From positions 132,053-196,052 of the forward strand of contig JBIKWM010000002.1 of the NCBI GenBank assembly GCA_044356305.1: 64,000 nucleotides of DNA, read 5' to 3'. Under the pieces are notes generated by a model. That model was given only the letters and a program-made list of their open reading frames with translations, searched no databases and was not told the DNA's origin. Of this stretch, positions 6,591 through 22,051 are shown piece by piece. The stretch's first letter is position 1. Each line of letters starts with the position of its first letter. Both the position numbers and the translations under genes were made by a program. This DNA is from Flavobacteriales bacterium (lineage in GTDB: Bacteria; Bacteroidota; Bacteroidia; UBA10329).

Positions 6591-6878
6591 TTACTCAGGT
6601 TTTATCCCATACTTCTTGAAATAGGCCGCCTTCTTCTCATTCAAGCGGGCCCGTTCTCCCTCATAGTCATTGATGTTGTTCTTATTCGCCTCAATCTTGG
6701 CCTCAAACTCTTTTATCGCTCTCAGTTCGCGCGCAGCCTCATTCTCCTGTTCAACTGACTGGGTGCTGGTGGTTGTGCCCTGCGAAGTGCCCTGCGAAGT
6801 GCCCTGCGATGTACTCTGCGCCACGCAAATGCCACTGAATGCGGCCACCAGTATGAATGTTAGCGTCTGCTTTTTCAT
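6591..6878 (-). CDS. Small secreted protein (95 aa), paralog of 18346..18663 and 18716..18994
   Basis: Signal peptide MKKQTLTFILVAAFSGICVAQ, STSQGT x3 linker, then charged helix AIKEFEAKIEANKNN. Similar architecture to the two other small secreted ORFs. Confidence 0.5.
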   Translation of the reverse strand: MKKQTLTFILVAAFSGICVAQSTSQGTSQGTSQGTTTSTQSVEQENEAARELRAIKEFEAKIEANKNNINDYEGERARLNEKKAAYFKKYGIKPE

Positions 6879-6910
6879 TTTCCGTTTATCTGATTTGATT
6901 TCAAATGTAT

Positions 6911-6938
6911 GGAAAAAGGAAAGGGGCCGAAGCCCCTC
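6911..6938 (-). terminator. Intrinsic terminator downstream of giant adhesin gene
   Basis: Hairpin aggggc-cgaa-gcccct at 6922-6937, followed on the minus strand by ttcctttttcc. Confidence 0.45.
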
Positions 6939-6961
6939 GCCCTTTCCCTTTCACTGCGCTC

Positions 6962-9900
6962 TCAACGCATCACTTGTATCAGGCTCGATGTCCCTCGCCC
7001 ATCATTGTTCAACACCTGCAGCAGGTATGTACCGCTGGCCACATCGAGGCTGATCTCCTGCCTGATGTCGCCCATCTGCGCAATGGTCTGCCTGAACAGC
7101 ACTCGGCCAGTGAGTTCGGTCACAATGAAGGTAAGCTCCTCTTTGGCCTCACCCACTGCCACGGTGAACTGACCGCCCGATGGGTTGGGATACACGCTGA
7201 TGTAGTCGAAGCCCACCTCCTCAATACCAATGTAGGAGAACTCAATGGTATCAGAGCTCGTTTCGCAACCATTCGGATCTGTGTAGATCACCCAGTAGTA
7301 TCCGCTCTCCACCGCGTCATACGACTGGTCATTGGCACCTGGAATCGGGTCACCGTTGTGGAACCACTGGTACCCGGTTGTCACTTGATCCACGGTCAGC
7401 GTGTTACCGTTGGCAGTGATAATGCCTGTGGTCACCGGCAGGTTAGTCACGACAACCGGTGCAGATGTGGCTATACAACCGTTTGCATCAACTGTGGTGA
7501 CCGTATAGTCTCCAGGGGCCGAAGCATGGGTGAATGATGCAGTGGCCTGATTCGGCAGCCACAGGTACTGTGAAGCGGTTGAAGAGGTCAACAATACAGC
7601 ATCTCCTGGGCAGATATCAGTAGGACCTTGTGGAGTAACAACAGGCACCACAGGTGTGACCACATTGAAGTTGACACCAGACAGGGCCAACGATGCGCAT
7701 ATGGCTCCTCCACCCTGCAGCAACTGGGCATTGACCGAAGCCACGGTAGTCACGCCATTCTGTATCGTTGCTGTGCTGAACGTGTTAGGATCATACACGA
7801 ACGTGTGAATTGTGTAAATGCCATTGGAATTCACAGCAAATGAAGGAGTGGTGTTGGTCTGCTGAATTATCCCTCCCTGAACCAAGAGATACAAAGTCTG
7901 GAAGCCTGTGGGGACAATTGAGTTACCCGAAGGTGTGGCGTCAAGTGTCACTGTCTGTCCAGGGGTGAGGCATGCGGGAGCAGCACTCGCGTTCAGTGTG
8001 CCCGCACTCACCGGGCAAGCATTGCTCGACACGGTCACAGTCTGGCAGAACTGGTCAGTTCCGCAGCTGTTCGTGACAGTGAGGCACACATTGTACGTGC
8101 CATCGGCCAGATACGTGTGGGTCGGGCTGGCGCTTGTTGAAGTACCGCTGTCACCGAAATCCCAAGCGTATGTGGTGGCATCTGTGCTAGCATCAGTGAA
8201 TGTCACAGTAAGCAGGTTGGCCGATGCCGTGAATGATGCAACCGGCAGATTGCCGCCTGTTGTAACAGTCGCTGTTCCGCTCACAGTTCCAGGGCAGCCT
8301 GAGGCGTCAGAGACGCTTATGAGTATATAATCACCAGGAACGGTCACATTCTGGCTATACGGACTGGCGGTGATTCCCGTGATTGGGAAAGGTCCGCCTG
8401 GGGTGCTGACCACAACATCCCATGGACCGACACCAGTCAAAGTCCCGGTAATATCCACACCAGCACCTGCGCAGATGGCGCCTCCACCACTGATATCGGC
8501 AGTCGGGCCTGAATTCACGGTCACATCAATCGTGTTCGATGTGGCCGAGCAGCCGTTTGCGTCCACGGTGGTAACGCTGTACGTGCCAGTAGCTGTGGCT
8601 GTGATGGTCTGTGTATTGCCCGATGGTGTCCAAGAATAACTGTTGGCCGTGCTCGATTGAATATCCACACTACCACCTTGACAGAAAGACACGGGGCCAA
8701 GGGCAGTAACGGTCGGAACGATGGCATCAACCACAGTCACAGTGGCACCTACCAGATCTAGCGAACCACAGAAAGTGCCGCCACCTTGGATCAACTGGCC
8801 ATTTACAAGTGCCACAGGCACAGGCAATGGAACGGATGTCGGATCAATGTCGGCAGGGTTGTACACAAGAGTGTGCAGCGTATAGGTGCCCGTTGCAGTT
8901 ACCGTGAATGTCGGTGTGGCCGACACCTGAACAATGTTGGTGCCTTGGCTCAGTGCATAGACTGTGGCAAATCCGCCAGGCACAACAGCATTGCCTCCAG
9001 GGGTGCCGGTCAGCGTAGCTGTTCCATTAACAAGGCAGGCTGTTGCGCTGCTGCTAATGGTTCCCGCAGCCGCAGTACAGCTCGCGCTGGTCACAGTCAC
9101 CGACTGGCATATCTGGTTCGTGCCGCAATTGTTCGTCACAGTAAGACACACGTTATATGTGCCCGCAGTTGTGTAAGTATGGGTCGGATTCTGTTGGGTC
9201 GATGTATTGCTGTCGCCAAAATCCCAGGCCCATGTTGTCGGAGAACCTGTGCTCGCATCGGTAAACACAACTGTCAGGTCTGTCGGGGCCGAGGTGAATG
9301 CAGCTGTAGGTCCATTCCCTGAAGTTACTATGGCTGAACCGCTGACAGTTCCTGGGCAGCTGGTGGCATCAGTAACCGAAACGATGGTGTAAGTGCCTGG
9401 CAACGTCACATTCTGAGTGAATGGGCTAGTGACAATCGGAGGTAGTGGAATATCGTTCAAACCATCATTCAGTACCACCGTCCAAGGGCCTGTTCCTGTA
9501 AATGTGCCTGTGATATCAACACCGACTCCGTTACATACCTGCCCGCCTCCGCTGATGGTGGCAGTCGGAGAAGTAGTAACAGTAACAGTTGCGCTACCTG
9601 AAACTGTACCAGGACATGACGAAGCATCGGCCACTGACACGAGGGAATAGTTCCCTGCTGCGCCAACAGCTTGGGTAAACGGACTACTGGTCACATTAAT
9701 TGTTGAGTTAGTGCTTCCATCGTTCATCACAACTGTCCATGGGCCAGTGCCTGTAGTGGTAATTGTCAGATCAACAGTCTGACCAGAACAGGCGGTACCT
9801 CCACCACTCAAGGTAGCGGTCGGGGCCGGGTTCACAGTGACAACAGTGGCTGTAGAAGTGGCAGAACAGTTGTTGAGGTCATTCACTGTTACAGTGTAAG

Positions 9901-12900
9901 ATCCAGCGGTTGTAATGGTTGCAGACTGAGCAGTTCCACCGCTCGGGCTCCAGTTATAGGTGTTGGCTGTGCTCGAGGTCAGAGTAACGCTGCCGCCTTG
10001 GCAAATTGCAATTGGACCGCCCGCTGTAACAGTAGGCACAGTCGGAGCAATGTCGTTGCTCAGGGTGAATGCCCCCGTGCCGGTCCCGAATCCTGTGACA
10101 TAAACAAAATACTGCGTTCCAGCTGTGGTGGCCGCTGTCACACTGCTCTGAAGGCCGCAGGCATCGTCATTACCGCCCACGCAGACCAAAGAGGTGCAAG
10201 GCCCTTCAAACACACCTATCTTACTATCGTAAGTAGTGCCAGTGCATGTGTTCAAGGTCACTGCGGCTCCTGTACCGAAGAACGAATACCATACCCCTGG
10301 AGCTGTATTGAGGGTCGTGGTACATGTGGCCGGGGCATCACTTGCATCTGCGCCCACTGTGGTCCCGTTCACTGGCGTTCCGCATGTAAGTGGCAATGCT
10401 CCACCGCACAGATCATTTACCGGAGCTGGGGTACAGGTCAACGTCAGTGTGAAGTCACCTGAATTGGTCCCGAATCCGGTCACGTAGATAAGGTACTCCT
10501 GTCCCACTATAGAAGTGAATGCCACACTGCTCTGAAGGCCGCAGGCGTCATCATTTCCAGCCACGCATCCCAAGGTGGCACAAGGACCGGTGAACACCCC
10601 GATCTTGGTGTCCCAAGCAGCACCCCCACAGGTTGATACTGTAACAGCATCGCCTGTTCCGGTGAATGTGTACCACACACCGGGTGACGTGTTCAATGTC
10701 GTGGTACATGTGGCCGGGGCATCTGCCGCATCAGCTCCGGTAGTTGTACCGTTTACCGATTGTCCACATGTAATTGCAATTGCCCCACCGCACAGGTCGT
10801 TGGGGATTGTATTCGATGTCACAGTCACGGGTTGGCAATCTTGGTCGGTACCACAGGTGTTTGTAACCGTGAGGCAAACTGTGTATGTCCCTGCCGCGGC
10901 ATAGGTATGTGCAGGGTTGGCCGTGTTGTCAGTGCCCCCATCACCAAAATCCCACGCATAGGTTGTTGGCCCACCGGTGCTGGCATCAGTGAAGGTGGCG
11001 TCCAAGTTATTGGTCACTGAAGTGAATGAAGCCGTTGGTGCTGTATTGACCGCTACAGTAGCTGTACCGCTTCCCGTGCCTGTACAAGTCGTTGCATCAG
11101 TAACGTTTGGTATTGTGTAAGTCCCAGCAGTGCTCACGGTCTGAGTGAACGGGCTTGTGGTGATGTTCAATGTCGAATTAGAAGTGCCATCATTCAGAGT
11201 AACTGTCCAAGGGCCTGTGCCGGTGAGGGTGATTGTCAGGTCGGTTGTCTGACCCTGACAGATGGTGGCCCCACCAGATAGTGTTGCGGTCGGGGCCGGG
11301 TTAACAGTGACTACAGTTGGAAGCGATGTAGCCTGGCAATTATTGACATCAACCGTTGTAACGGTATAAGAACCAGAAGTGGTCACCGTATTGGTCTGCC
11401 CTGTTCCACCTGTCGGGGCCCATGTGTAAGAAGCAGAAGTATTTGCCGAAAGGGTAACACTTCCACCCTGACAGAAGGTCGTTGGGCCTCCTGCAGTGAT
11501 GGTCGGGCCGATTGGCGTCATGTTATTGCTGAGTGTGAACGCTCCCGTTGCCGTACCGAAGCCGGTCACATACACGAAGTACTGGGTGCCGGCCGTGGTG
11601 TTTGCCGTCACACTGCTCTGTAGGCCCGAACCGCAACCTGTTGCATCATCATTTCCGGCTATACAGGTAAGTGCGGTGCACGGCCCTTGATAGACCCCTA
11701 TCTTACTGTCATATGTTGTGCCGGTGCAGGTGTTGAAGGTGACCGGGGCGCCCGTACCAAAGAAAGAGTACCACACACCACCTGCAGTATTGAGCGTTGT
11801 GGTACAAGGCGAGAGGGCGCCTGTCGTGGTGGAATTCACAGTGGTGCCGTTCACAGCCACTCCGCATGTGAGCGGAATTGCATTGCCACACAGGTCATTG
11901 GCAGGAGGGGGCGGTGCAACGCAGGTATTGCAGGTCACCGTGGTGGTGCGGCATGTGTTCTGGGTTCCGCACGCATTGCTAGTGCTGATATGCAGCCTAA
12001 CTGTTCCTGAGAATGTGGCCGTCCACGTGATTGGGGTGGTGCCAGAGGCAAGTACAGGCGTAGAGCTTGTCCCATCGGTGAGCACCAGCCAATCTGTTGC
12101 AATACTCGAGGTGAAGGTGTAGGTCTGACCGGCCACCACATTGTTTATCACAGCAAACTCACCAGCGAAATTGCAGGTTGAGATAGTGACTGTTGTCGGT
12201 GTGGTCGGTGCGTTGGCGGTACCGAATTGCGGAGTATGAATGCAGTCAACAGTCCCGACAACCGTCACATTCTGACAGATCTGGTTACTGCCGCAGCCAT
12301 TGGTGGCGGTCAGGCATACGTTATAAGTGCCTCCGGCCGCATAGGTGTATGTCGGGTTCTGAAGGGTCGAGGTGCCTCCGTCACCAAAGGTCCATGCCCA
12401 AGAGGTGGGAGTACCTGTGCTCGCATCCGTGAAGCTCGCGTCAAGTGCAGCCGTTGTCGATGTGAATGCCGCAACCGGGGTGCTGCCCGTGGTCACTGTG
12501 GCCGATCCGCTCGATGTGCCTGTGCAGCCGGTGGCATCGCTCACACTCGATACGGTGTACGTGCCGGCAGTGGTGACCGTGGTGGTGAATGGGCTGGTCA
12601 AAATCCCTGTGGTGGGTGTGCCGTTCAGCACAATACTCCACGGGGCCGTGCCTGTAAGGGCAACGCTCACCGTCACCCCCACTCCGTTGCACACCACACC
12701 ACCACCACTCACCGTGGCTGTTGGGGCCGTGTTCACTGTCACAGTGGTCGGGGCCGATGTCGCAGCGCAGTTGTTCAGATCATTCACTGCAACGGTGTAT
12801 GAACCGGCAGTGGTTATAGTAGCCGACTGAGCCGTGCCTCCACTTGGAGACCATGCATAGGTGTTGGCCGTGCTCGAAGTAAGAGTAACACTGCCGCCCT

Positions 12901-15205
12901 GACAGAAAGTGGTAGGCCCACCGGCAGTCACTGTAGGAGTCACCGCGGTCAAATCATTGCTCAAGGTAAATGCTCCCGTTGCAGTACCGAAGCCGGTCAC
13001 ATACACAAAGTACTGGGTGCCGGCAGTTGTAGCCGCATTCACTGTGCTCTGGAGGCCGCAGGCATCATCATTTCCACCTACACAGGTCAATGAGGCACAT
13101 GGGCCCTGAAACACCCCTATCTTGCTATCATAGGTGGTGCCAGTACATGTATTGAGACTAACTGTGGCACCTGTTCCAAAGAAAGAATACCAAACCCCGG
13201 CAGCTGTATTCAATGCGGTGGTGCACGTTGCAGGAGCGTCAGCAGCGGTGGCACCCACCGTGGTGCCGTTCACCGGAGTACCGCAAGTCAGGGGAATGGC
13301 TCCACCGCACAAGTCATTGGTAGGGGGAGATACGCAAGTGATGCTCATGGTGAATGCACCTGTATTTGCTCCGAACCCAGTAACATAAATGAAATAGGTG
13401 GTTCCTACTGCACTTGTGAAAGTCACGGTGCTCTGCAATCCGCATGCATCGTCATTTCCTGCAACACAGGTCAGCGCCCCGCATGCCCCACTGAATACCC
13501 CAAGTTTACTGTCGTAGGCCGTGCCAGTGCATGTGCTGACTGTAACAATGTCACCCGTTCCCACAAAACGGTACCATATACCCCCAGAAGTATTTAAGGT
13601 CGTAGTGCAGGTTGCTGGTGCATCGGCAAGGTCGGAACCAACCGTGGTACCGGTCACCGTCTGACCGCAGGTAACGGTTATCGCACCGCCACAAAGGTCA
13701 TTCACTATACCACCGGACACAGTCACATTCTGGCAGATCTGATTGCTGCCGCAACCGTTGGTCGCAGTAAGGCACACGTTATAGGTGCCACTCGCTGCGT
13801 AGGTGTAGGATGGGTTCTGCAGGGTCGAGGTGCCTCCGTCACCAAAAGTCCATGCCCAAGAGGTAGGGCTTCCTGTACTTGCATCAGTGAAACTCGCAGC
13901 AAGCGCAGCTGTGGTGGAGGTGAATGCCGCGGTAGGCGTGACTCCCGTAGTAACGACAGCTGAGCCACTCGATGTGCCCGTGCAGCCGTTAGCATCAGTC
14001 ACACTCGATACAGTGTAAGTAGCTGCGGCAGTTACGGTAGTGGTGAATGGGCTCGTAGCGATTCCGTTGAATGGCGTGCCATTAAGGACAATGTTCCAAG
14101 GGGCCGTTCCCGTAAGGGCCACTGAAACTGGCACTCCTACTCCGTTACATACCACGCCACCGCCACTAACTGTGGCTGTTGGGGCTGTGAACACAGTGAC
14201 CGCAGTGGCTGCCGAAGTTGCCGCACAACCATTGATGGTGCCGGCAACGGTGTAGCTTCCTGCAGCAGATACGGTAGCCGATTGGGCCGAACCACCGCTC
14301 GGGCTCCATGCATAGGTGCTTTGGAAAGAAGATGTGAGGGTGACGCTACCACCGGGGCAGAATGAAGTAGGACCGCCAGCTGTAACGGTCGGAGTAACCG
14401 CTGCCAGATCATTCGACATTGTGAAGTTGCCTGTATTGCCACCGAAACCGGTCACATAAACAAGGTAATTCGTCCCAAGAGTGGAGGTGAATGTCACGGT
14501 TGATTGAACCCCGCACGCATCATCATTACCTGCCACACATGTCAGTGCCCCGCATGTGCCCGTGAACACCGCAATCTGGCTGTCGTAATCAGTTCCAGTG
14601 CACGTTGACAGGGTTACAGAAGCTCCGGTTCCAACAAAGCTGTACCATACACCTCCGGCCCCGGTCAGCGCAGCCGATGTTCCACAAGCCGCCCCTGGGG
14701 CACCGGTTGTCGTGGCATTGATGGTTGACTCCGACACAGAAACACCGCAGGTCAATGGAATCGCATCAGCACACAGGTCATTGGCAGGGGGAGTGACAGC
14801 TCCGAACAGACAGCCTGCGCAAGCAGGTTCGGCAGCAGCCTCACCGGCACAGATACCGTCCCATTGGGTATTACAACAGAATGGGTCTAGGGCGCAAATG
14901 GCCGTCTCGCAAGCAGGGTCGCTCGGAAATCCAGCTGTGGCCTGGGTCTGGTCGCAGAATGCACTCCCACCTGTGCTCAAGCAGCCAGCACAAGCAGGTT
15001 CCGCGGCCGCACTCGCTGCACAAATTCCATCCCAAAGGGTGTTGCAACAAAACGGGTCTGCAGGACAAATGGCATTCTGACAGTTGATGTCTGATGGAAA
15101 TCCTGCCGTTCCCTGCGCCTGATCACAGAACTGGGCGAATGCACTTTGAAACCCGAATAGGGCGAATGCGATTGTCGCAATTGTCTGAATGGAGAAATTT
15201 CTCAT
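6962..15205 (-). CDS. Giant (2747 aa) T9SS-secreted adhesin-like repeat protein: two N-terminal 8-Cys modules, many PPC-like domains, PKD domains, Ig-like repeats, type-A sorting domain
   Basis: Signal peptide MRNFSIQTIATIAFALFGFQSAFAQ. Two copies of FCDQxQxTAGFPSD..CxxAICxxDPFCCNTxWDGICA..AAEPACAGCL. ~110-aa modules NDLCGGAIPLTCG...GVWYSF.GTG..VT.STC.GT.YDSKIGVF.G.C..L.CV.GNDDACGLQS.V...GFG..TGAFTLS repeated >8 times. WAWTFGDGGTST..NP.YTY PKD motifs. C-terminal VYPNPSGGQFTV...GTYLLQVLN CTD. Confidence 0.85.
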   Translation of the reverse strand: MRNFSIQTIATIAFALFGFQSAFAQFCDQAQGTAGFPSDINCQNAICPADPFCCNTLWDGICAASAAAEPACAGCLSTGGSAFCDQTQATAGFPSDPACETAICALDPFCCNTQWDGICAGEAAAEPACAGCLFGAVTPPANDLCADAIPLTCGVSVSESTINATTTGAPGAACGTSAALTGAGGVWYSFVGTGASVTLSTCTGTDYDSQIAVFTGTCGALTCVAGNDDACGVQSTVTFTSTLGTNYLVYVTGFGGNTGNFTMSNDLAAVTPTVTAGGPTSFCPGGSVTLTSSFQSTYAWSPSGGSAQSATVSAAGSYTVAGTINGCAATSAATAVTVFTAPTATVSGGGVVCNGVGVPVSVALTGTAPWNIVLNGTPFNGIATSPFTTTVTAAATYTVSSVTDANGCTGTSSGSAVVTTGVTPTAAFTSTTAALAASFTDASTGSPTSWAWTFGDGGTSTLQNPSYTYAASGTYNVCLTATNGCGSNQICQNVTVSGGIVNDLCGGAITVTCGQTVTGTTVGSDLADAPATCTTTLNTSGGIWYRFVGTGDIVTVSTCTGTAYDSKLGVFSGACGALTCVAGNDDACGLQSTVTFTSAVGTTYFIYVTGFGANTGAFTMSITCVSPPTNDLCGGAIPLTCGTPVNGTTVGATAADAPATCTTALNTAAGVWYSFFGTGATVSLNTCTGTTYDSKIGVFQGPCASLTCVGGNDDACGLQSTVNAATTAGTQYFVYVTGFGTATGAFTLSNDLTAVTPTVTAGGPTTFCQGGSVTLTSSTANTYAWSPSGGTAQSATITTAGSYTVAVNDLNNCAATSAPTTVTVNTAPTATVSGGGVVCNGVGVTVSVALTGTAPWSIVLNGTPTTGILTSPFTTTVTTAGTYTVSSVSDATGCTGTSSGSATVTTGSTPVAAFTSTTAALDASFTDASTGTPTSWAWTFGDGGTSTLQNPTYTYAAGGTYNVCLTATNGCGSNQICQNVTVVGTVDCIHTPQFGTANAPTTPTTVTISTCNFAGEFAVINNVVAGQTYTFTSSIATDWLVLTDGTSSTPVLASGTTPITWTATFSGTVRLHISTSNACGTQNTCRTTTVTCNTCVAPPPPANDLCGNAIPLTCGVAVNGTTVNSTTTGALSPCTTTLNTAGGVWYSFFGTGAPVTFNTCTGTTYDSKIGVYQGPCTALTCIAGNDDATGCGSGLQSSVTANTTAGTQYFVYVTGFGTATGAFTLSNNMTPIGPTITAGGPTTFCQGGSVTLSANTSASYTWAPTGGTGQTNTVTTSGSYTVTTVDVNNCQATSLPTVVTVNPAPTATLSGGATICQGQTTDLTITLTGTGPWTVTLNDGTSNSTLNITTSPFTQTVSTAGTYTIPNVTDATTCTGTGSGTATVAVNTAPTASFTSVTNNLDATFTDASTGGPTTYAWDFGDGGTDNTANPAHTYAAAGTYTVCLTVTNTCGTDQDCQPVTVTSNTIPNDLCGGAIAITCGQSVNGTTTGADAADAPATCTTTLNTSPGVWYTFTGTGDAVTVSTCGGAAWDTKIGVFTGPCATLGCVAGNDDACGLQSSVAFTSIVGQEYLIYVTGFGTNSGDFTLTLTCTPAPVNDLCGGALPLTCGTPVNGTTVGADASDAPATCTTTLNTAPGVWYSFFGTGAAVTLNTCTGTTYDSKIGVFEGPCTSLVCVGGNDDACGLQSSVTAATTAGTQYFVYVTGFGTGTGAFTLSNDIAPTVPTVTAGGPIAICQGGSVTLTSSTANTYNWSPSGGTAQSATITTAGSYTVTVNDLNNCSATSTATVVTVNPAPTATLSGGGTACSGQTVDLTITTTGTGPWTVVMNDGSTNSTINVTSSPFTQAVGAAGNYSLVSVADASSCPGTVSGSATVTVTTSPTATISGGGQVCNGVGVDITGTFTGTGPWTVVLNDGLNDIPLPPIVTSPFTQNVTLPGTYTIVSVTDATSCPGTVSGSAIVTSGNGPTAAFTSAPTDLTVVFTDASTGSPTTWAWDFGDSNTSTQQNPTHTYTTAGTYNVCLTVTNNCGTNQICQSVTVTSASCTAAAGTISSSATACLVNGTATLTGTPGGNAVVPGGFATVYALSQGTNIVQVSATPTFTVTATGTYTLHTLVYNPADIDPTSVPLPVPVALVNGQLIQGGGTFCGSLDLVGATVTVVDAIVPTVTALGPVSFCQGGSVDIQSSTANSYSWTPSGNTQTITATATGTYSVTTVDANGCSATSNTIDVTVNSGPTADISGGGAICAGAGVDITGTLTGVGPWDVVVSTPGGPFPITGITASPYSQNVTVPGDYILISVSDASGCPGTVSGTATVTTGGNLPVASFTASANLLTVTFTDASTDATTYAWDFGDSGTSTSASPTHTYLADGTYNVCLTVTNSCGTDQFCQTVTVSSNACPVSAGTLNASAAPACLTPGQTVTLDATPSGNSIVPTGFQTLYLLVQGGIIQQTNTTPSFAVNSNGIYTIHTFVYDPNTFSTATIQNGVTTVASVNAQLLQGGGAICASLALSGVNFNVVTPVVPVVTPQGPTDICPGDAVLLTSSTASQYLWLPNQATASFTHASAPGDYTVTTVDANGCIATSAPVVVTNLPVTTGIITANGNTLTVDQVTTGYQWFHNGDPIPGANDQSYDAVESGYYWVIYTDPNGCETSSDTIEFSYIGIEEVGFDYISVYPNPSGGQFTVAVGEAKEELTFIVTELTGRVLFRQTIAQMGDIRQEISLDVASGTYLLQVLNNDGRGTSSLIQVMR

Positions 15206-15236
15206 GTTGTCGAGATGTTGATGGGGCGCTGCCCGG

Positions 15237-15614: not shown

Positions 15615-15772
15615 AAGCTTGAAACCTTGGCCAAGAGCGTACACGTTTTCCTTCCCCTTTCTTTTTCCAGAAAAGCCGCCAATAATAAGCATTTAATCGA
15701 AATGAAGATGTCGGAACAGGGACCAATTGTCGGTAGCACAAAACAGATCTCCGTGCGGATTAAATTCCCAGA

Positions 15773-15802
15773 CCAAAAAAAAAGGGGGCCAGTGGCCCCC
15801 TT
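15773..15802 (-). terminator. Intrinsic terminator downstream of 826-aa PPC protein gene
   Basis: Perfect hairpin gggggccaGtggccccc at 15784-15800 with A-run 15773-15783 (T-run on minus strand). Confidence 0.55.
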
Positions 15803-15828
15803 TCCTTTCCGATCCAATGAAATCAGCC

Positions 15829-18261
15829 TTAACGGGAGATGGAGATCCGCTTAGATGCAATCAGACCATCGGCCCCAACAATATTCAGTAGGTAGGTGCC
15901 CGCAGCCAGATCTACATTCAGATTCTGGCGGATGTTGGCCCCGCCCTGAAGCTGATGCGCAATGAGTTTGCGACCACTAAGATCTGTAAGCTCTGCCTGA
16001 ACATTGCCCTGTGCACCTTTCACCTCTATCGTCAGCTCTCCAGCCGATGGGTTGGGGTAAACAGAAAGCGAAACAGCTTCAACTGAATTCAGGCCTGTCA
16101 CTATCACAGTTACCGATTGGCAGTCCTGGTCGCTTCCGCACGCGTTGGTGGCTGTGAGGCAAACGGTATAAGTGCCATTGGCGGTATAGGTATGCGATGG
16201 GCTGGTTGAAGTGCTCGACCCCCCATCACCGAAATCCCATGCATAGGAGGTGGCACCGCCAGTGCTCTGATTGGTGAAGTTAACTGTTGGGTCGGCATTC
16301 TGGAAAGTATAGCCAGCGGTCGGACTATTGCCTGTACCTATAGTAACCGAATTGCTGCGCTGACAGCCATTGCTATCTGTGACGGTCAATGTGTGGGTTC
16401 CAGATGACACAGAGATTGACTGTGTGGTCTGACCACCCGGTGACCACAGGTAACTGAATCCTGTTCCGGCAGGACCACCAATGGTCACGGGATTCCCGTT
16501 GCATGAAGTTGGGCTAGAAGGACTGATGGTGGCATCCGCTACGTACTGGTTGTCGGTGAGCTGAACAAAGAGGTCAGCAGCAGCACCTTGGTAGCCATCC
16601 ACTTGAACATAGTAGACCTGTCCAGCGGTGAGGCAGGTCACTGTCACTTCAGACGAGAACTCGGTTGTCACAAAATTCGGGTTGTCGTCATTGGCGCCCT
16701 CAATAACTGCACCACCACTGGTTATGGCGATGCAGCTTGCCGCACTGTAAACCGCTAGCTGTGTGTCATACGAACCATCGGTGCTGATGGTCACATTACC
16801 CGATGCTGGGGCGACAAATGTGAACCATACCGAATTGTCTACAATCAGGTCGCCACCACACCAGCCATCCTGCGACTCGCAGTTGTTTGTGGTGTTAGAG
16901 CCTTGTGGTGGTACAGGCTCGCCCGCCTCAGCCGTGGCCCCTGTGGTGACGAAAGGCCCATTGGCTCCGAAACTGAGCGGGATAGCCGAACAGACATCAT
17001 CATTGGTGGCCACGACAGCGCCATAAACGCATATATCAAAAGTGGTTGTGGCCGGAATTCCAATGTTGTAGTCATAGACACGCACAAAAATCGTAGCTCC
17101 CGGGGTTGCTCCGGTAAGTACTCCGGCCTCTGCTTCCCCAGACAATGTGTTGTCGAGACAACCCAACGAGGTTAACGCCCCACATGTTCCATCAAACACT
17201 TCCAGAACCGCATCGAACGAGGTTGAGCCGAGCACTTCAATGTTGGCAGCACCATTGGCAGGTACTACAAATGAGTACCATACATCGTCATCGGCAGTAC
17301 CTGCGCAGCCCGCCTGACTCTCAGTGGCTGTGGTCACATCGCCTGATACGGGCACACACGATGTGCCTACCGCAAGGCTCGTTGCACCGGCACACTCGTC
17401 ATTGCCTGTGGCACTCGGGTCGTATACGCATATATCGAAAGTTGTGGTCAGGGGTGCTCCAGTGTAGTAGTCGTACACGCGCAGATAGATGGTCTCACCT
17501 GGCACCCCTCCTGTAAAGGCAGCGGACTCCAACTCGCCTTCCAATGTACCGTCTACACATCCTACGGAAACCAGAGTGGCACAGTCGCCAGTGAAGGCTT
17601 CGACAACCGCATCAAAATTGGCAGAGCCTTGAACATCAATGGTCGCATTACCCGAAGGAGGAACAACAAAGCTGTACCACACATCGTCATCGGCCGTTCC
17701 AGAACAACCTGCCTGACTCTCTGTGGCATTGGTGACATCTCCACTGGTTGGGGTGCAATTGACCGTCACAGATAATGAAGTGGCAGTGGCACACTCATCA
17801 TTGGTGGCCATAGGAGTCTCGTATACGCACATCAGAAAATCTGTGGTGGCCGCCACATCAGCGTCAAAGTCATAAACTCTATAGAAGATTGTGGTACCAG
17901 CCACACCGGTCACTAATACTCCCTCAACTTCTCCATCAACTGTCGCATCAATACAACCAATAGATGTCAAGGCCCCACAAGACCCTTCAAAGAATTCGAG
18001 CACAGCGTCAAATGCCGTGTTACCAAGCACTTCCACTGTGGTAGAGCCGCTCGCTGGCATCACAAAACGGAACCAGATATCATCATTCGCTGTGCCTGCA
18101 CAACCCACTTGGGACTGGGTTGCCCCGGCCACATCGTAGGTGCCGGGCACACAGTCAGCGTTTACCGTCATCAAGATTGAACCTGAACAGTTGTCGTTCT
18201 GGGCCGAAGCGCCAAATGCCAAAAGGCTTAAGGAGGCAAGAAGCGTAAATCTATTTTTCAT
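15829..18261 (-). CDS. T9SS-secreted protein with four PPC (pre-peptidase C-terminal)-like domains, PKD domain and type-A sorting domain
   Basis: Start at MKNRFTLLASLSLLAFGASAQ (ATG 18259-18261). Four ~125-aa modules NDxC..A..L....C....GDV..ATESQAGC.GTADDDVWYSFVVP..G...I.V.G...FDAV.E.F.G.C..L.S.GC.D......E.......G...IY.RVYDY......TFDICVY. YAWDFGDGGSST PKD motif. CTD LSVYPNPSAGELTIEV...GTYLLNIV. Confidence 0.8.
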   Translation of the reverse strand: MKNRFTLLASLSLLAFGASAQNDNCSGSILMTVNADCVPGTYDVAGATQSQVGCAGTANDDIWFRFVMPASGSTTVEVLGNTAFDAVLEFFEGSCGALTSIGCIDATVDGEVEGVLVTGVAGTTIFYRVYDFDADVAATTDFLMCVYETPMATNDECATATSLSVTVNCTPTSGDVTNATESQAGCSGTADDDVWYSFVVPPSGNATIDVQGSANFDAVVEAFTGDCATLVSVGCVDGTLEGELESAAFTGGVPGETIYLRVYDYYTGAPLTTTFDICVYDPSATGNDECAGATSLAVGTSCVPVSGDVTTATESQAGCAGTADDDVWYSFVVPANGAANIEVLGSTSFDAVLEVFDGTCGALTSLGCLDNTLSGEAEAGVLTGATPGATIFVRVYDYNIGIPATTTFDICVYGAVVATNDDVCSAIPLSFGANGPFVTTGATAEAGEPVPPQGSNTTNNCESQDGWCGGDLIVDNSVWFTFVAPASGNVTISTDGSYDTQLAVYSAASCIAITSGGAVIEGANDDNPNFVTTEFSSEVTVTCLTAGQVYYVQVDGYQGAAADLFVQLTDNQYVADATISPSSPTSCNGNPVTIGGPAGTGFSYLWSPGGQTTQSISVSSGTHTLTVTDSNGCQRSNSVTIGTGNSPTAGYTFQNADPTVNFTNQSTGGATSYAWDFGDGGSSTSTSPSHTYTANGTYTVCLTATNACGSDQDCQSVTVIVTGLNSVEAVSLSVYPNPSAGELTIEVKGAQGNVQAELTDLSGRKLIAHQLQGGANIRQNLNVDLAAGTYLLNIVGADGLIASKRISISR

Positions 18262-18345
18262 GTATTGGTTTTTAATGGTAGTTGGGATGAAAAAGGGAAA
18301 ACCGCCCATCGGTCAGAGGGGCGGTTGATTTTGTTAAGAAACAGG

Positions 18346-18663
18346 TCATTTCTTCTCAGCCAAAACGCCCTTGATCTCACCGATGAGTTTATTCAACTCA
18401 GCTTTTGCGGCTTCGGTGGCGTTCTGATTCGCGGCCAACTTGGCCTCATATCGCTCAAGATGTTTCTGAAGGTCCTCCTTTGTCATGGCCCGGTAACGGG
18501 ACATGCGTGCATCAGATTCGTTCACCACTGTTTTGGTCACGGGACCTTGGCTCTCCACCTTGGTCGTGGTCTTTTGGGCAGGAGCTGCCGTGCTGTTGTT
18601 CTGTGCGCTTGCTGACAAGCTGAAAAGCATCAGCGCAACGGGTACGAAAAAAGTCTTCTTCAT
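18346..18663 (-). CDS. Small secreted coiled-coil protein (105 aa), LTXXQ-like (Spy/CpxP-like) candidate
   Basis: Signal peptide MKKTFFVPVALMLFSLSASAQ. S/T-rich linker. MTKEDLQKHLERYEAKLAANQ helix. Terminator-like hairpin accgccc...gggcggt at 18299-18325, downstream of this gene's stop codon. Confidence 0.5.
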   Translation of the reverse strand: MKKTFFVPVALMLFSLSASAQNNSTAAPAQKTTTKVESQGPVTKTVVNESDARMSRYRAMTKEDLQKHLERYEAKLAANQNATEAAKAELNKLIGEIKGVLAEKK

Positions 18664-18715
18664 CTCGATTTCGTTAAGGTTTGTGTGGTTCTCGGAGTTC
18701 GTTCAAGTAGGTTTA

Positions 18716-18994
18716 TCACTCATCAGACGCACGGAGGCCCTTCAGGTGGCCCAGTCTGCGTTCGTAAGCAGCACTGTCAAAATTTGCGTCATTCCTATGT
18801 TCCTCAATGTGGGCCTCCAATTGTTTGATGGCCTTATTGATCTGTTCGCGTGTCATGCCCGAATGTCGCGGCTGAGGCGATTCCTCGGTCACCGCTACCT
18901 TGGCCTCGTTTGGGGCTGCAGAGCTGCCTTCCGATTGTGCAATGGCGCAAAACGAGATAAACACAAGGCTCGAAGAAAGAATCAGTTTCCGCAT
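18716..18994 (-). CDS. Small secreted coiled-coil protein (92 aa), paralog of 18346..18663
   Basis: Signal peptide MRKLILSSSLVFISFCAIAQ. Linker. MTREQINKAIKQLEAHIEEHRND. Confidence 0.5.
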   Translation of the reverse strand: MRKLILSSSLVFISFCAIAQSEGSSAAPNEAKVAVTEESPQPRHSGMTREQINKAIKQLEAHIEEHRNDANFDSAAYERRLGHLKGLRASDE

Positions 18995-19038
18995 GAGATT
19001 CGGATTAAGCGCCCAAATGTAGGACGAATTAGAGATGA

Positions 19039-20280
19039 TCAGGAAACTACCCTTCGCAAAGAGTCAGCTTGGGCGTTGTTGCGCGAAACGACTTGCTTGA
19101 ATCTCTCAATCAGGTCGGCAGGTATGGGCTCCGACCTTGGGGGCACCTCTTTTCTGTGATCAATCTGTTTGCCATTCTTCCAGAAGCGGAAACAGACATG
19201 AGGCCCGGTTGCAAGACCGGTGCTACCGACATATCCGATAACCTCGCCCTGCCGTACACGCACACCCTTACTTATGCCGCTCCTGAACTTGGACATGTGC
19301 AGATACTGGGTCTCGTATGTCTTGTTGTGCCTGATCTTCACATAGTTCCCGTTGCCCGAGGTGTAGCGTGCCTCTGATACTGTGCCATCGCCAACGGCCA
19401 TGATTGGCGTTCCGTGCGGGGCTGCGTAATCGGTGCCGAGGTGTGGCCGTAGGGTCTTGAGCACTGGATGGAGACGTCCCTTTGAAAAGGCACTGCTGAT
19501 GCGAGAGAATTTTAGAGGGGCCTGCAGAAAAGCCTTTTTGAGGCTCTGGCCATCGCTGGCGTAGTATCCCTTCAGCCCGTCAACTTCAAAATAATGTGCA
19601 TCGTTGGCCTTGCCACCGCTCTCAAAATTGGCGGCCCTAATCCTGCCAATGCCTACGCTCTGACCTTCCACCACATCCTCCTCGTACAGGGCAAAGAACC
19701 GGTCGCCTTTCTGTATGCGGTAAAAATCAACAGTCCATGCAAAAATCTCCGATAGCTCGACCGCGAGGGCGGGGCTGTGCCCGAGTTTCTCCAACTCGGC
19801 ATAGAGCGATGACCGTATCTCACCTTCAATGAGCCGCAACTTCCGCTCTACGGGTCTTTGTACCACATAGACATTCAGGCTGTCGCGTAAATCGAACACA
19901 ACGTACTCCTTATCGCTCGACTCATAAACAAAGCACTTGGCCACTCCTTCGGCATCCTTTGAGCAGAACACCGTTAGAGGCCTGCCTGCGGCCAATTTCC
20001 GCACATCCCAAACATCCTTTGATGCTTCGGCAATCTCATGCACGGTCTTGCCCTGAACACCGTACTTCTGTAAAATCTGAGAAAGGCTCTGGTTCTTCTG
20101 GACGTGGCCTTTAATGACAGTAAAGGAGTCGGTGCTTATCCCATACTCAAGTTGAGGCTCGGCCGCGAGCGTGTCACTTACCGGCACATTGTCCGGGTCA
20201 GGGGCCAAACAGCCCTGCCACGGTACCATAAGAAACAGCATGCTCAGGACGCTGCCGCAGGCAACAAGGGCTCTCAGCAT
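19039..20280 (-). CDS. M23 family peptidoglycan DD-metalloendopeptidase
   Basis: HLGTDYAAPHGTPIMAVGDGTV ... YLHMSKF ... GYVGSTGLATGPHVCFRF (HxxxD and HxH motifs of LytM/M23). Confidence 0.8.
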   Translation of the reverse strand: MLRALVACGSVLSMLFLMVPWQGCLAPDPDNVPVSDTLAAEPQLEYGISTDSFTVIKGHVQKNQSLSQILQKYGVQGKTVHEIAEASKDVWDVRKLAAGRPLTVFCSKDAEGVAKCFVYESSDKEYVVFDLRDSLNVYVVQRPVERKLRLIEGEIRSSLYAELEKLGHSPALAVELSEIFAWTVDFYRIQKGDRFFALYEEDVVEGQSVGIGRIRAANFESGGKANDAHYFEVDGLKGYYASDGQSLKKAFLQAPLKFSRISSAFSKGRLHPVLKTLRPHLGTDYAAPHGTPIMAVGDGTVSEARYTSGNGNYVKIRHNKTYETQYLHMSKFRSGISKGVRVRQGEVIGYVGSTGLATGPHVCFRFWKNGKQIDHRKEVPPRSEPIPADLIERFKQVVSRNNAQADSLRRVVS

Positions 20281-20281
20281 A

Positions 20282-21952
20282 TCAACGCAGAAGTGTCAGA
20301 AATCCCTGTCGGCTCTGGGTAGACCCATCCAGACCAGTCAAATTGAGCAGATAGTAGTATGTTCCCTGTTCCGCCTCGGCATTGCCATTTATTCGGCCGT
20401 CCCATCCCCAGTCACTCCCAGCGGTCAAAGTTCCTTCCATCTCATGCACCTTCAGCCCCCACCTGTTGTAGATCTTCATTGCGGCAGCAGTGTAACCATA
20501 GACGAAAGGTTCCCACAACCTGTTCATATCATCACCATTCGGGGTGAACACATTCGGCACTTCCAACATGGGCATGCCCTCAATATGAATGGATTGCATG
20601 GCCGTGTCGGCACATCCGAACTCATTGGTAACGATCAGGGTCACCACATAGGTGCCGCTGTCTGGAAAAACGTACTCGGCATCTTGACCATTAAGTATGG
20701 TGTCTCCCACCATCCACTGGTAGGTCGTGGCCTGGCCCTGGGCCGAAAACGAACCATTTAGGTAGGCGGCATCAATCAAAGCAGTGGCCGTGGGCACCGG
20801 ATTCACCGTGACTGACTGTGTCACGGTGTCTGTGCAGCCATCGGCCGTTATGAGCAATAGCGCTGCATCGTATTCACCAGCTTCGGCAAATAAATGGAAA
20901 TGGTCAATGGTGGAGGCCGTGGACCCATCACCATGATCCCAAGAATAGGTGGTCCCCTGTCCGAGAGCATTGCCCGTGAAGTCAAATGCTGTGGTATCGC
21001 CCGCACAGACCGGCCCGGTATTAAAGGCAGCGGTCGGCAGCGGGTCTATCACCACATCAAAACTGTCGGTGGCCGTGCACCCTGCCATGTCTGTTATGGT
21101 CTGAACTATGGTGTAGGTGCCAGGGGCGGCATAGGTCACATCCCCAGGGTCAATCTGGTCGGAGGTCTGGCCGTTGCCCAGATCCCAGTTCACTGCCGTC
21201 ACAGCTCCCAGAGCGCTATAGGACGCATCTGCAATGTTGATGGCCTCGCCAAGGCACACCTCATCATCGCTCAATGTGGCATCGGGCAGCATGGCCAGGC
21301 AAAACCTGTGCTCGTTGTTCAAACCGCCAGTACTGGCCGTGAATCCCCAATAGACCTCAGGATTGCCCGAAAAAAGGTCATTGACAATATCTGTGTTGAG
21401 TTCAACCCTCAGGTCGCTATCCATGTAGACGGAGAATGTGTTCGTGCCGGGCGCCCAGACCACGCGCATGAGATGTTCAGCCGCATCTTCAATATTGCCT
21501 CCGCTGGCAAGGGCTGTGACAGGCCCCATCAGGTTATTGGCCGTGCCATGGTCCACCACCCCATTGCTCATCAGTGCAATGTGGTCATAGACAGGGTCCC
21601 ATCCGTTCTGATAGGTGTCGACCTCCACGGCCAGAGACGGACTGATGCCCTCATAGCCCAGCCCACCACCTGTGCTGCCGATGCTGGTGCTTATAGGTTG
21701 CAACATGAATGCGATGCCATCGGCCCCGCCATCATTGGCCCCCAGGTACACATTGAATGTGAAATCAAAAGGGTCGGTCAGGTCTATCAGGTTCTCGTTC
21801 CAGACCGAGCCCCCCTGAGTGTTGATGGCCTGGGTGAGTCGGTAACAGTTGCATGAGAGCTGCACGGCATTCCCGTTCACAACGTATTGGGCCGTGCCTA
21901 TCAACGGAAGGGAAGAGAGGAGGACAAGCAGGAGTCTTTGCATATCATTCAC
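20282..21952 (-). CDS. T9SS type-B cargo: L-type (legume-like) lectin domain + PKD domains + gliding-motility-associated C-terminal domain
   Basis: Signal peptide. N-terminal lectin-like beta-sandwich (GGADGIAFMLQP..., VYWGFTASTGGLNNEHRFC). C-terminal VPNVFTPNGDDMNRLWEPF...GTYYYLL type-B CTD. Confidence 0.7.
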   Translation of the reverse strand: MNDMQRLLLVLLSSLPLIGTAQYVVNGNAVQLSCNCYRLTQAINTQGGSVWNENLIDLTDPFDFTFNVYLGANDGGADGIAFMLQPISTSIGSTGGGLGYEGISPSLAVEVDTYQNGWDPVYDHIALMSNGVVDHGTANNLMGPVTALASGGNIEDAAEHLMRVVWAPGTNTFSVYMDSDLRVELNTDIVNDLFSGNPEVYWGFTASTGGLNNEHRFCLAMLPDATLSDDEVCLGEAINIADASYSALGAVTAVNWDLGNGQTSDQIDPGDVTYAAPGTYTIVQTITDMAGCTATDSFDVVIDPLPTAAFNTGPVCAGDTTAFDFTGNALGQGTTYSWDHGDGSTASTIDHFHLFAEAGEYDAALLLITADGCTDTVTQSVTVNPVPTATALIDAAYLNGSFSAQGQATTYQWMVGDTILNGQDAEYVFPDSGTYVVTLIVTNEFGCADTAMQSIHIEGMPMLEVPNVFTPNGDDMNRLWEPFVYGYTAAAMKIYNRWGLKVHEMEGTLTAGSDWGWDGRINGNAEAEQGTYYYLLNLTGLDGSTQSRQGFLTLLR

Positions 21953-22051
21953 TTTTCGGGTGGCTAAATTAGACCTGTCAATCCTTCAAACGTTCATTTT
22001 ACCGAGATTGGCGGGGGGTGCCGCTAGGTCCATGGGTCTACCTTTGGCCCC

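What the first reader, a model, noticed from the sequence alone, without database searches (positions are those of the whole stretch)
6591..21952. Dense T9SS cargo island with adhesin-like giants and interleaved small secreted paralogs
On the minus strand, in order of transcription, are: a lectin/PKD type-B cargo, an M23 peptidase, two small secreted proteins, a 4xPPC-PKD cargo, a 125-aa secreted ORF, the 2747-aa giant, and a third small secreted protein. A convergent M43 protease cargo lies at 4137-6215. Dedicated terminators separate the units (6911-6938, 15773-15802, 18299-18325). Four T9SS cargo genes in about 18 kb, with the same three accessory gene types recurring, suggests a functional module for surface adhesion or polymer degradation with its own processing and chaperone factors, not a random collection.
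Basis: partly seen in the sequence, partly recalled or inferred. Interest (0 to 1): 0.5.

Follow-up and report, generated by a model that had tools for sequence, protein, structure and literature searches.

The report
Conserved T9SS surface-protein gene cluster
A block of genes for large sticky surface proteins, a cell-wall enzyme and several tiny secreted helical proteins keeps the same order across a whole group of uncultured Bacteroidota, so it is a real inherited unit, but nothing shows that the tiny proteins or the enzyme are helpers for the surface proteins.

Summary

In about 14 species-level relatives the order lectin type-B cargo | M23 | small secreted protein | type-A cargo | small secreted protein | larger type-A cargo | small secreted protein recurs. 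M23 in these relatives is only 52-65% identical. None of the window's flanking genes is shared with them.

Three parts of the interpretation fail or are unsupported:
- The M23 gene is a phylum-wide MepM-like housekeeping gene. The locus grew around it, so it is not a dedicated processing factor.
- The M43 cargo is not part of the conserved unit.
- Only one accessory type recurs. It is a clade-restricted family of Sec-exported alpha-hairpin proteins (g92, g105, g95) with no known relatives. A chaperone role is pure inference.

The cargo proteins contain only binding modules, with no catalytic domain, so surface adhesion or glycan binding is the likeliest role. The giant grew by tandem duplication of a ~1.45 kb super-module.

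Verdict: a new, clade-specific variant of a T9SS surface-protein locus. Interest is moderate to low.

The parts
20282..21952 (-). Type-B T9SS cargo: signal peptide, L-type lectin domain, 3 PKD domains, CHU_C/type-B CTD. The likely start is the ATG at 21943 (553 aa).
   Evidence: Domains. Full-length orthologs (46-79% identity) lie directly upstream of M23 in L009, L010, L012-L015, L089 and L091-L097. The gene is absent in L003/L004 and L011.
19039..20280 (-). MepM/ShyC-like M23 endopeptidase (Csd3_N2 + Peptidase_M23), a probable lipoprotein. It starts 1 nt after the lectin stop codon. It is the housekeeping anchor of the locus.
   Evidence: Domains. Orthologs at 45-62% identity across Bacteroidota. 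HxxxD is present, and the HxH motif reads GPHVCF in nearly all (about 96%) of the orthologs checked. dN/dS is 0.02-0.05.
19014..19021 (-). TACATTTG, a Bacteroidota -7 promoter motif (TAnnTTTG) 20 nt upstream of the g92 start codon
   Evidence: The same motif lies 20-45 nt upstream of the position-1 small gene in 8 relatives.
18716..18994 (-). g92: small Sec-exported alpha-hairpin protein in position 1, directly after M23
   Evidence: Signal peptide ending AQ|S. AF2 gives a disordered N-terminal tail (~residues 1-28) then helix 29-45, a loop and helix 54-71, with block-mean pLDDT about 90 or above over the hairpin. Positional orthologs follow M23 in L003, L007, L009, L011, L013, L091, L094 and L097. 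dN/dS is 0.12-0.19.
18346..18663 (-). g105: paralog of g92, a duplicate found only in the window's own genus-level group
   Evidence: Orthologs occur only in L003-L008 and L097.
18299..18325 (-). Intrinsic terminator ending the lectin-M23-g92-g105 unit
   Evidence: -15.8 kcal/mol, z = -4.0
15829..18261 (-). Type-A T9SS cargo A1: 3x GBD_T9SS_assoc, PPC, PKD and Por_Secre_tail. The ORF extends to 18309, but the Met at 18261 gives the signal peptide.
   Evidence: Relatives have a modular type-A cargo of 559-1010 aa in this slot, only partly alignable (56% over 298 aa to L014).
15773..15802 (-). Intrinsic terminator after cargo A1
   Evidence: -22.2 kcal/mol
15237..15644 (-). g125/135: small secreted protein 31 nt upstream of the giant, in position 2. 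It belongs to an unannotated family of small signal-peptide proteins and lipoproteins.
   Evidence: 69 clusters with E < 1e-3 among 1.84 billion representatives, all 109-226 aa. No Pfam or NCBIfam hit. The AF2 model is unusable (pLDDT 43). Relatives carry a different small signal-peptide protein in this slot.
6962..15205 (-). Type-A T9SS cargo A2, the 2747-aa giant: two N-terminal Cys-rich repeats, about 6 Cys-containing GBD-like modules, Ig-like domains, 6 PKD domains and a CTD
   Evidence: Direct repeats with 1419-1482 nt spacing at 60-80% identity. The counterpart in relatives is 1102-1406 aa.
6911..6938 (-). Intrinsic terminator after the giant
   Evidence: -19.2 kcal/mol, z = -3.5
6902..6909 (-). 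TACATTTG promoter motif 24 nt upstream of g95
6591..6878 (-). g95: alpha-hairpin family member in position 3, after the large cargo
   Evidence: Orthologs at the same position in L014, L089, L091 and L095. It is called as a 95-aa gene in other assemblies.
4137..6215 (+). Convergent M43 metalloprotease with PKD, choice-of-anchor J and a probable type-A CTD. It is a neighbour, not part of the conserved cluster.
   Evidence: No homolog within 10 kb of the cluster in 14 clade loci.

Best explanation
This is a vertically inherited, clade-specific cell-surface locus that grew around the housekeeping mepM-like M23 gene in an uncultured Flavobacteriales-like lineage.

**Shown**
- The gene order is conserved across deep divergence while the flanks are not.
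- Three cargo genes carry T9SS sorting domains.
- All their other domains are non-catalytic binding modules.
- The small genes encode signal-peptide proteins without a CTD.
- Three of them form one alpha-hairpin family under purifying selection.
- Terminators and promoter motifs split the locus into units: [lectin-M23 (P) g92-g105]T, [A1]T, [g125-giant]T, (P)[g95].

**Inferred**
- The cargo proteins are exported by Sec, fold in the periplasm, pass the T9SS translocon and are displayed on the cell surface. Type A would be linked after CTD cleavage, and type B held by a PorP-like protein encoded elsewhere.
- On the surface, arrays of lectin, GBD-like, PKD and Ig modules bind glycans or particles.
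- The alpha-hairpin proteins stay in the periplasm, probably as small helical-bundle dimers, and act on products of the locus. Whether their partner is the cargo or M23 cannot be decided.
- M23 itself does ordinary peptidoglycan remodelling and is a passenger or anchor of the locus, not a cargo-processing enzyme.
For: **Synteny.** The order lectin-B | M23 | small | A1 | small | A2 | small is seen in L009, L012-L014, L089, L091, L095/96 and L097, and partly on shorter contigs. M23 identity within the clade is 52-65%, against 40-52% to other orders.

**Flank control.** 0 of 14 clade loci share any of the window's flanking genes.

**Lectin-M23 link.** Lectin paralogs at 43% identity or less are never next to M23.

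**Cargo content.** All 9 relatives' cargo proteins pass the Por_Secre_tail threshold and contain only GBD, PPC, PKD or Ig-type modules. The window's cargo are the same.

**Small proteins.** The family profile hits only cluster genes in about 170 loci. The hairpin model is. dN/dS is 0.07-0.19.

**Transcription signals.** Terminators are and promoter motifs.

**M23 as a core gene.**
Against: - No expression, localisation or interaction data exist.
- The cargo proteins in the A1 and A2 slots are only partly homologous between species. What is conserved is a slot, not a specific protein.
- The locus is not uniform. L091 lacks A1, L009 lacks the position-3 gene, L095 lacks position 2, and L003 lacks the lectin.
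- Some position-1 proteins are truncated to one helix (L014, L089, L095).
- Position-2 proteins are not homologous across the clade.
- No T9SS machinery gene or PorP-like partner is in the window.
Confidence: 0.55

Rival explanations
1. Neutral hitch-hiking. The genes are adjacent only because surface-protein genes accumulated once beside a stable core gene (M23) and have not yet been separated. There is no functional coupling between cargo, M23 and the small proteins.
For: - M23 is a core gene with different neighbours elsewhere.
- Strong terminators and separate promoter motifs divide the locus into at least four units.
- Cargo in each slot is modular and turns over.
- Members are individually dispensable in some lineages.
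Against: - Order and orientation are kept across M23 divergence of 52-65%, while both flanks have been replaced.
- Three near relatives have three different upstream junctions but the same internal order.
- The hairpin family occurs nowhere else in about 2.5 Mb of other Bacteroidota loci.
Confidence: 0.22
2. The small secreted proteins are private periplasmic chaperones or escorts for the neighbouring T9SS cargo, and M23 processes the cargo or the wall for them.
For: - Small CTD-less signal-peptide genes flank each type-A cargo in most clade members.
- g125 is 31 nt upstream of the giant with no terminator between them.
- The only T9SS chaperone I found in the literature is the general SkpA (PMC10994853), so the niche is open.
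Against: - There is no similarity to Spy/CpxP, Skp or any other chaperone family.
- The position-1 gene persists without cargo A1 (L091) and without the lectin (L011).
- g92 and g95 have their own promoter motifs and sit behind terminators.
- M23 is phylum-wide and so not dedicated.
- Outside the clade, type-A cargo genes have no such neighbours (4/35 against 47/912, and none of the four is hairpin-like).
Confidence: 0.13
3. The alpha-hairpin proteins are partners, either regulators or inhibitors, of the M23 endopeptidase. The T9SS cargo genes were later inserted between duplicated copies.
For: - The position-1 gene always follows M23 within 10-120 nt in the clade, including loci without the lectin (L011) or without A1 (L091).
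- Positions 1 and 3 are homologous.
- From general knowledge, M23/LytM enzymes are commonly controlled by coiled-coil or helical partners such as EnvC with FtsEX, and ShyA and Csd3 are autoinhibited.
Against: - Outside the clade the equally conserved M23 has no such neighbour.
- Some position-1 proteins have lost the second helix.
- The position-3 copy lies up to 12 kb from M23 under its own promoter.
- No interaction evidence exists.
Confidence: 0.1

Closest known systems
Flavobacterium johnsoniae adhesin loci (sprC-sprD-sprB-sprF; remA and its neighbours), which combine T9SS cargo with locus-encoded accessory proteins
   Same: Large repetitive cell-surface adhesins or lectins with T9SS CTDs are encoded together with smaller genes that lack a CTD. 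Type-B cargo depend on a nearby partner (PMC9143113; RemA is cited as a mobile surface lectin in PMC10994853).
   Different: The known accessory is a PorP/SprF-type outer-membrane beta-barrel. No such gene is in this window. Here the type-B cargo is instead followed by a housekeeping M23 gene, and the accessory candidates are 90-135 aa soluble helical proteins.
MepM (YebA) / ShyA-ShyC / Csd3 family of M23 DD-endopeptidases
   Same: Csd3_N2 + Peptidase_M23 architecture. The best NCBIfam matches are ShyC, MepM and ShyA over nearly the full length. The HxxxD motif is present.
   Different: Scores are far below the equivalog cut-offs (240 against 700; 181 against 341). The HxH motif reads HxC throughout the Bacteroidota orthogroup. 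The protein appears to be a lipoprotein.
Small helical periplasmic chaperones (Spy/CpxP/ZraP LTXXQ family; SkpA of the T9SS extended translocon)
   Same: Small, Sec-exported, all-helical proteins without enzymatic motifs. Several position-1 proteins contain an LTxEQ-like string.
   Different: No sequence or profile match to LTXXQ, Skp or any Pfam or PDB entry. The fold is a bare 43-residue hairpin behind a ~28-residue disordered tail. Foldseek gives only generic hairpins with E > 0.8.
Multi-domain T9SS cargo built from GBD_T9SS_assoc, PPC, PKD and Ig-like modules, common in environmental Bacteroidota
   Same: Identical module repertoire and a type-A CTD.
   Different: Nothing essential. The giant is unusual only in size, through tandem super-module duplication, and in its two unannotated N-terminal Cys-rich repeats.

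Membership tests
T9SS type-A CTD cargo (TIGR04183 / PF18962) | C-terminal Por_Secre_tail domain above the curated threshold | tested here: met
   g826 scores 41.5 bits against 23 (TIGR04183) and 37.4 against 27 (Pfam). The giant scores 29.3 against 23, and 30.4 against 27 when its C-terminal segment is scanned alone. The M43 neighbour scores 22.1 against 23 and 17.4 against 27, so it is borderline and supported only by my local model.
T9SS type-A CTD cargo (TIGR04183 / PF18962) | N-terminal Sec signal peptide | tested here: met
   Read directly from the sequences: MKNRFTLLASLSLLAFGASAQ (g826), MRNFSIQTIATIAFALFGFQSAFAQ (giant) and MRRTLLSLVLMAATCTASLAQ (M43). No signal-peptide predictor was available.
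T9SS type-A CTD cargo (TIGR04183 / PF18962) | The organism has the T9SS machinery, and secretion depends on it | not testable with these tools
   No core T9SS gene lies in the 64 kb window. The rest of the genome was not available.
T9SS type-B CTD cargo (TIGR04131 / PF13585 CHU_C) | C-terminal type-B sorting domain above threshold | tested here: met
   TIGR04131 scores 43.3 against 35 and PF13585 scores 60 against 27, over residues 464-556.
T9SS type-B CTD cargo (TIGR04131 / PF13585 CHU_C) | A cognate PorP/SprF-like outer-membrane partner encoded next to the cargo (usual but not obligatory) | tested here: not met
   The downstream gene is M23 in every clade member. No PorP/SprF-like match was found among the window's proteins.
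MepM/ShyC-type M23 peptidoglycan DD-endopeptidase | Peptidase_M23 catalytic domain preceded by a Csd3_N2-type domain | tested here: met
   PF01551 scores 105.8 bits and PF19425 scores 50.8 bits.
MepM/ShyC-type M23 peptidoglycan DD-endopeptidase | Score above the NCBIfam equivalog cut-off | tested here: not met
   ShyC 240 against 700, MepM 181 against 341, ShyA 176 against 700. It is a homolog, not an assigned equivalog.
MepM/ShyC-type M23 peptidoglycan DD-endopeptidase | Canonical zinc and catalytic motifs HxxxD and HxH | tested here: inconclusive
   HLGTD is present. The second motif is GPHVCF (H-x-C) here and in nearly all (about 96%) of the Bacteroidota orthologs examined. Cys may replace His as a ligand, but activity was not tested.
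Conserved gene cluster (functionally linked neighbourhood) | Same genes in the same order and orientation in divergent genomes whose surrounding gene order differs | tested here: met
   About 14 species-level loci keep the order at M23 identity of 52-65%. 0 of 14 share any flanking gene with the window.
Conserved gene cluster (functionally linked neighbourhood) | Co-transcription or co-regulation | not testable with these tools
   Only sequence signals are available. There is a 1-nt lectin-M23 junction, gaps of 44 and 52 nt, three terminators, and two TAnnTTTG motifs.
Spy/CpxP (LTXXQ) periplasmic chaperones | Match to the LTXXQ / Spy family profile or fold | tested here: not met
   No such hit with E up to 10 in Pfam for 13 family members. 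There is none in the PDB by profile or by fold.

The most novel reading that the evidence does not exclude
The alpha-hairpin proteins (g92/g105/g95 family), perhaps together with the position-2 small proteins, are a previously unrecognised class of locus-encoded periplasmic partners. They would either escort specific giant T9SS cargo or tune the MepM-like endopeptidase. In addition, the whole cassette, including the essential-looking M23 gene, would be exchanged between lineages as a hypervariable surface locus. That would explain why synonymous divergence jumps at the cluster edge (third-position identity 46-58% inside against 65-71% in the flanks).
Probability: 0.15. Interest if true: 0.65.

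Novelty: new variant of a known kind. Interest (0 to 1): 0.36.

Why it matters
T9SS cargo are usually treated as independent genes recognised only through their CTD. The only cargo-linked helpers known are PorP/SprF-type barrels for type-B cargo and the general SkpA.

A locus that keeps small CTD-less secreted proteins interleaved with giant cargo across family-level divergence gives a concrete, testable candidate for cargo-specific or wall-linked periplasmic factors in environmental Bacteroidota.

It also adds two unannotated small-protein families to the list of things worth naming:
- the alpha-hairpin family;
- the g125 family, with 69 clusters at 50% identity.

If the small proteins turn out to be irrelevant, the locus is just one more adhesin cluster next to a core gene.

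Tried and rejected
1. **CpxP/Spy idea.** The 'LTxEQ' strings in position-1 proteins prompted it. It was rejected after Pfam, PDB-profile and Foldseek searches gave nothing.
2. **Falcipain-2 hit.** The best PDB profile hit was the N-terminal extension of falcipain-2 (E = 0.02, 25 residues, 'NFDxAAY'). I treat it as a chance motif match.
3. **JGI names.** 'CwlO-like' and 'FliH' for the small proteins are coiled-coil noise.
4. **AF2 of g125.** pLDDT was 43, so it was unusable and no fold search was done.
5. **Word-indexed homolog searches.** For g92, g105 and g125 they found only 2-3 clusters each.
7. **Unrestricted iterative HMM.** On the loci it drifted into an unrelated 270-450 aa family. It was redone with a length filter and with the helical region only.
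8. **General Bacteroidota pattern.** I tested whether small signal-peptide ORFs next to type-A cargo are general. They are not.
9. **g125 family in fetched loci.** It occurs only in the window's own group.
10. **Mobile island.** There is no integrase and no tRNA at the borders (the only tRNA is at 40462-40535). GC is only slightly lower than in the flanks, and the locus sits next to M23 in every clade member. Rejected.
11. **Rfam.** There is nothing in the region.
12. **Giant's Cys-rich N-terminal repeats.** No NCBIfam or PDB hit.
13. **Exact-sequence look-up of the giant.** It failed because public assemblies break inside it.

Full report
**1. What is there**

- Lectin cargo: L-type lectin + 3 PKD + type-B CTD (20282-21952).
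- M23 peptidase with a Csd3_N2 domain, best matching ShyC, MepM and ShyA (19039-20280).
- Two small signal-peptide proteins, g92 (18716-18994) and g105 (18346-18663).
- Type-A cargo with 3 GBD_T9SS_assoc + PPC + PKD + Por_Secre_tail (15829-18309, true start probably 18261).
- A small secreted ORF (15237-15692). It is 125 aa from the ATG at 15614. It is more likely 135 aa from the GTG at 15644, which gives a proper signal peptide and matches ortholog P0007.
- The 2747-aa giant (6962-15205).
- A third small signal-peptide protein, g95 (6591-6878).
- The convergent gene at 4137-6215: M43 + PKD + choice-of-anchor J with a borderline type-A CTD.

The three terminators are genuine hairpin and T-run structures, at -19.2, -22.2 and -15.8 kcal/mol.

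Cargo genes are enriched here relative to the rest of the window: 4 of 9 genes against 2-3 of about 45, Fisher p = 0.005-0.011. The flanks are ordinary housekeeping genes: ccmB-E, a TPR protein, an Rce1-like protein, an FAD oxidase and a DinB-family protein.

**2. The synteny test**

*Nearest relative.* The nearest other species (L003/L004, 83-87% protein identity) has ccmB | M23 | g92 | g105 | cargo | g125 | giant. It lacks the lectin gene.

*Genome scan with M23.* A scan of 185,579 species genomes showed that M23 is a core gene. It is 45-62% identical in 582 matching stretches across Flavobacteriales, Chitinophagales, Saprospirales, Cytophagales and Sphingobacteriales.

*Closest MAGs.* In the seven closest MAGs (L009-L015), the genes around M23 follow the window's order wherever the contig allows:
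- a full-length ortholog of the lectin cargo (47-52% identity) directly upstream;
- a small signal-peptide protein directly downstream;
- then a type-A cargo of 560-950 aa;
- another small signal-peptide protein;
- a larger type-A cargo of 1100-1400 aa;
- often a third small signal-peptide protein.

*Metagenome scan with the lectin alignment.* It added eight more loci (L089, L091-L097). Every orthologous lectin (46% identity or more), on contigs long enough to show it, is followed by M23 within 1-25 nt. About 70 paralogous lectin cargo (43% or less) are not.

*Cargo in relatives.* All nine relatives' cargo proteins that I scanned pass the Por_Secre_tail threshold. They contain only GBD-like, PPC, PKD, Ig or fn3-type modules.

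*Depth.* M23 identity between sub-groups of the cluster-bearing clade is 52-65%. That is not much above the 40-52% seen between orders.

*Internal control.* None of the window's flanking genes, including the M43 cargo, occurs within 10 kb of the cluster in any of 14 clade loci. Those loci have kynurenine-pathway genes upstream and ispG downstream instead.

The cluster is a conserved unit. M43 is not part of it.

**3. How the locus was built**

In many Flavobacteriales outside the clade, M23 sits immediately after a tryptophan-2,3-dioxygenase-like gene (gap 0-75 nt). It is followed by a convergent gene. L011, a clade member, still has TDO | M23 | small protein without the lectin.

The lectin gene was therefore inserted into a pre-existing TDO-M23 pair. 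The small-protein and cargo genes accreted downstream.

M23 is thus an anchor, not a dedicated processing enzyme. It is under strong purifying selection, with dN/dS of 0.02-0.05.

Its HxH motif reads HxC, but that holds for nearly all Bacteroidota orthologs examined. It is a feature of the lineage, not of this locus.

**4. The small proteins**

*One family.* g92, g105 and g95 are weakly but significantly similar. A profile of their helical region finds only cluster genes among about 10,700 ORFs from about 170 loci. One hit, right after M23 in L094 (E = 1e-9), was not used to build the profile.

*Two conserved positions.*
- Position 1 follows M23. Its motif runs [LM]TxE..I..LE....N/K...FD...Y..R.
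- Position 3 follows the large cargo. Its motif runs ..KVEANKDN..VDYEAE....KWE.LTGK.W.
- g105 is a recent duplicate found only in the window's own group.

*Structure.* AF2 predicts a disordered N-terminal tail (~residues 1-28) followed by a 43-residue helix-loop-helix, with block-mean pLDDT about 90 or above over the hairpin.

*No known relatives.* Pfam, NCBIfam, PDB-profile and Foldseek searches give nothing meaningful.

*Real genes.* dN/dS is 0.11-0.19. g95 is called as a gene in other assemblies.

*Own promoters.* g92 and g95 each have TACATTTG, the Bacteroidota -7 promoter motif, 20-24 nt upstream. The motif recurs upstream of position-1 genes in eight relatives.

*Position 2.* It holds a small signal-peptide protein in most relatives, but not a homologous one.
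- Several have AEKxxWIxANPExY repeats.
- The window has g125, a member of a separate unannotated family of small signal-peptide proteins and lipoproteins. That family has 69 clusters among 1.84 billion representatives.

*Not a general pattern.* Outside the clade, type-A cargo genes are not accompanied by such small proteins.

**5. The cargo**

The giant is built of four to six copies of a ~1.45 kb super-module: a Cys-containing GBD-like domain, two Ig-like domains and a PKD domain. The copies are 60-80% identical at the nucleotide level. This explains why it is twice the size of its counterparts.

It starts with two Cys-rich 55-residue repeats that match nothing.

No cargo in the cluster, here or in relatives, has a catalytic domain. 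Binding or adhesion is therefore the better functional guess than polymer degradation.

The type-B lectin lacks the usual adjacent PorP/SprF-like partner.

**6. Mechanism: shown and inferred**

*Shown.*
- A conserved order with non-conserved flanks.
- CTD-bearing, binding-module cargo.
- CTD-less alpha-hairpin proteins under constraint.
- Unit structure from terminators and promoter motifs.

*Inferred from established T9SS biology* (PMC9143113; PMC10994853).
- Sec export, periplasmic folding, T9SS translocation and surface display of the cargo.
- The hairpin proteins lack a CTD and so remain periplasmic.

*Undecided.* Their partner cannot be determined.
- The cargo-escort reading is favoured by their positions around cargo.
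- The M23-partner reading is favoured by the invariable M23 to position-1 adjacency, even where the lectin or cargo A1 is missing.
- Both are weakened by truncated position-1 variants and by lineage-specific losses.

**7. An unexplained extra**

Against the nearest species, nucleotide identity drops from 84.9% in the flank (22037-30051) to 75.6-75.8% in the cluster. Third-codon-position identity falls from 65-71% to 46-58%. This holds even for the slow-evolving M23.

Three near relatives have three different upstream junctions.

This could mean the cassette is exchanged by recombination like other surface-antigen loci. It could also simply reflect faster evolution. It cannot be settled with the contigs at hand.

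**8. Verdict**

'Own processing and chaperone factors' is not supported for M23 and is untested for the small proteins. M43 is a bystander.

The locus is a new, clade-specific variant of a T9SS surface-protein cluster, containing two unannotated small-protein families. It is a moderately interesting lead, not a surprise.

Noticed in passing
window 19039-20280 and M23 orthologs in L009-L097: The MepM-like M23 proteins of Bacteroidota carry GPH[VL]C[FY] in place of the canonical HxH motif in nearly all (about 96%) of the orthologs examined. HxxxD is intact.
   Followed up: partly
window 13875-30051 compared with L003: There is a sharp step in divergence at the ccmB/cluster boundary. Nucleotide identity is 84.9% in the flank against 75.6-75.8% in the cluster, and third-codon-position identity is 65-71% against 46-58%. 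Near relatives have three different upstream junctions. This may indicate cassette exchange.
   Followed up: partly
window 14800-15130 (giant residues 25-135): Two 55-residue Cys-rich repeats (FCDQxQxTAGFPSDxxCxxAICxxDPFCCNTxWDGICA..AAAEPACAGC) have no Pfam, NCBIfam or PDB match.
   Followed up: partly
window 15237-15644: g125 belongs to an unannotated family of small signal-peptide proteins and lipoproteins. It has 69 clusters at 50% identity and a conserved ~95-aa domain (..LPxDY..RYPEF.GK.G.EYL.AVA..P.RYR.LI..RA.R).
   Followed up: partly
window 32000-34000: A low-GC (0.49), strongly C-skewed stretch lies in a genome region of 0.55-0.62 GC. It contains a 393-aa type-A T9SS cargo at 32207-33388(-).
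   Followed up: no
window 34839-38015 and 38041-40404: Two adjacent SpoIIE-type phosphatase proteins. One has Reg_prop/Y_Y_Y sensor repeats and the other has TPR repeats.
   Followed up: no
window 30870-31763 and 61105-62436: Further probable type-A cargo. The 443-aa PKD protein is a weak Pfam CTD hit. The 297-aa ORF is hit only by my local CTD model.
   Followed up: no
L001 and L169 (same organism as the window): Public short-read assemblies of this organism break inside the giant gene, so its full product is not on record.
   Followed up: yes
L017, L020, L037, L058 (~2.2-2.8 kb downstream of M23): Another Flavobacteriales group keeps a ~1880-aa type-B cargo at a fixed distance downstream of M23. 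This is a second, independent case of a T9SS cargo gene lying near this core gene.
   Followed up: no
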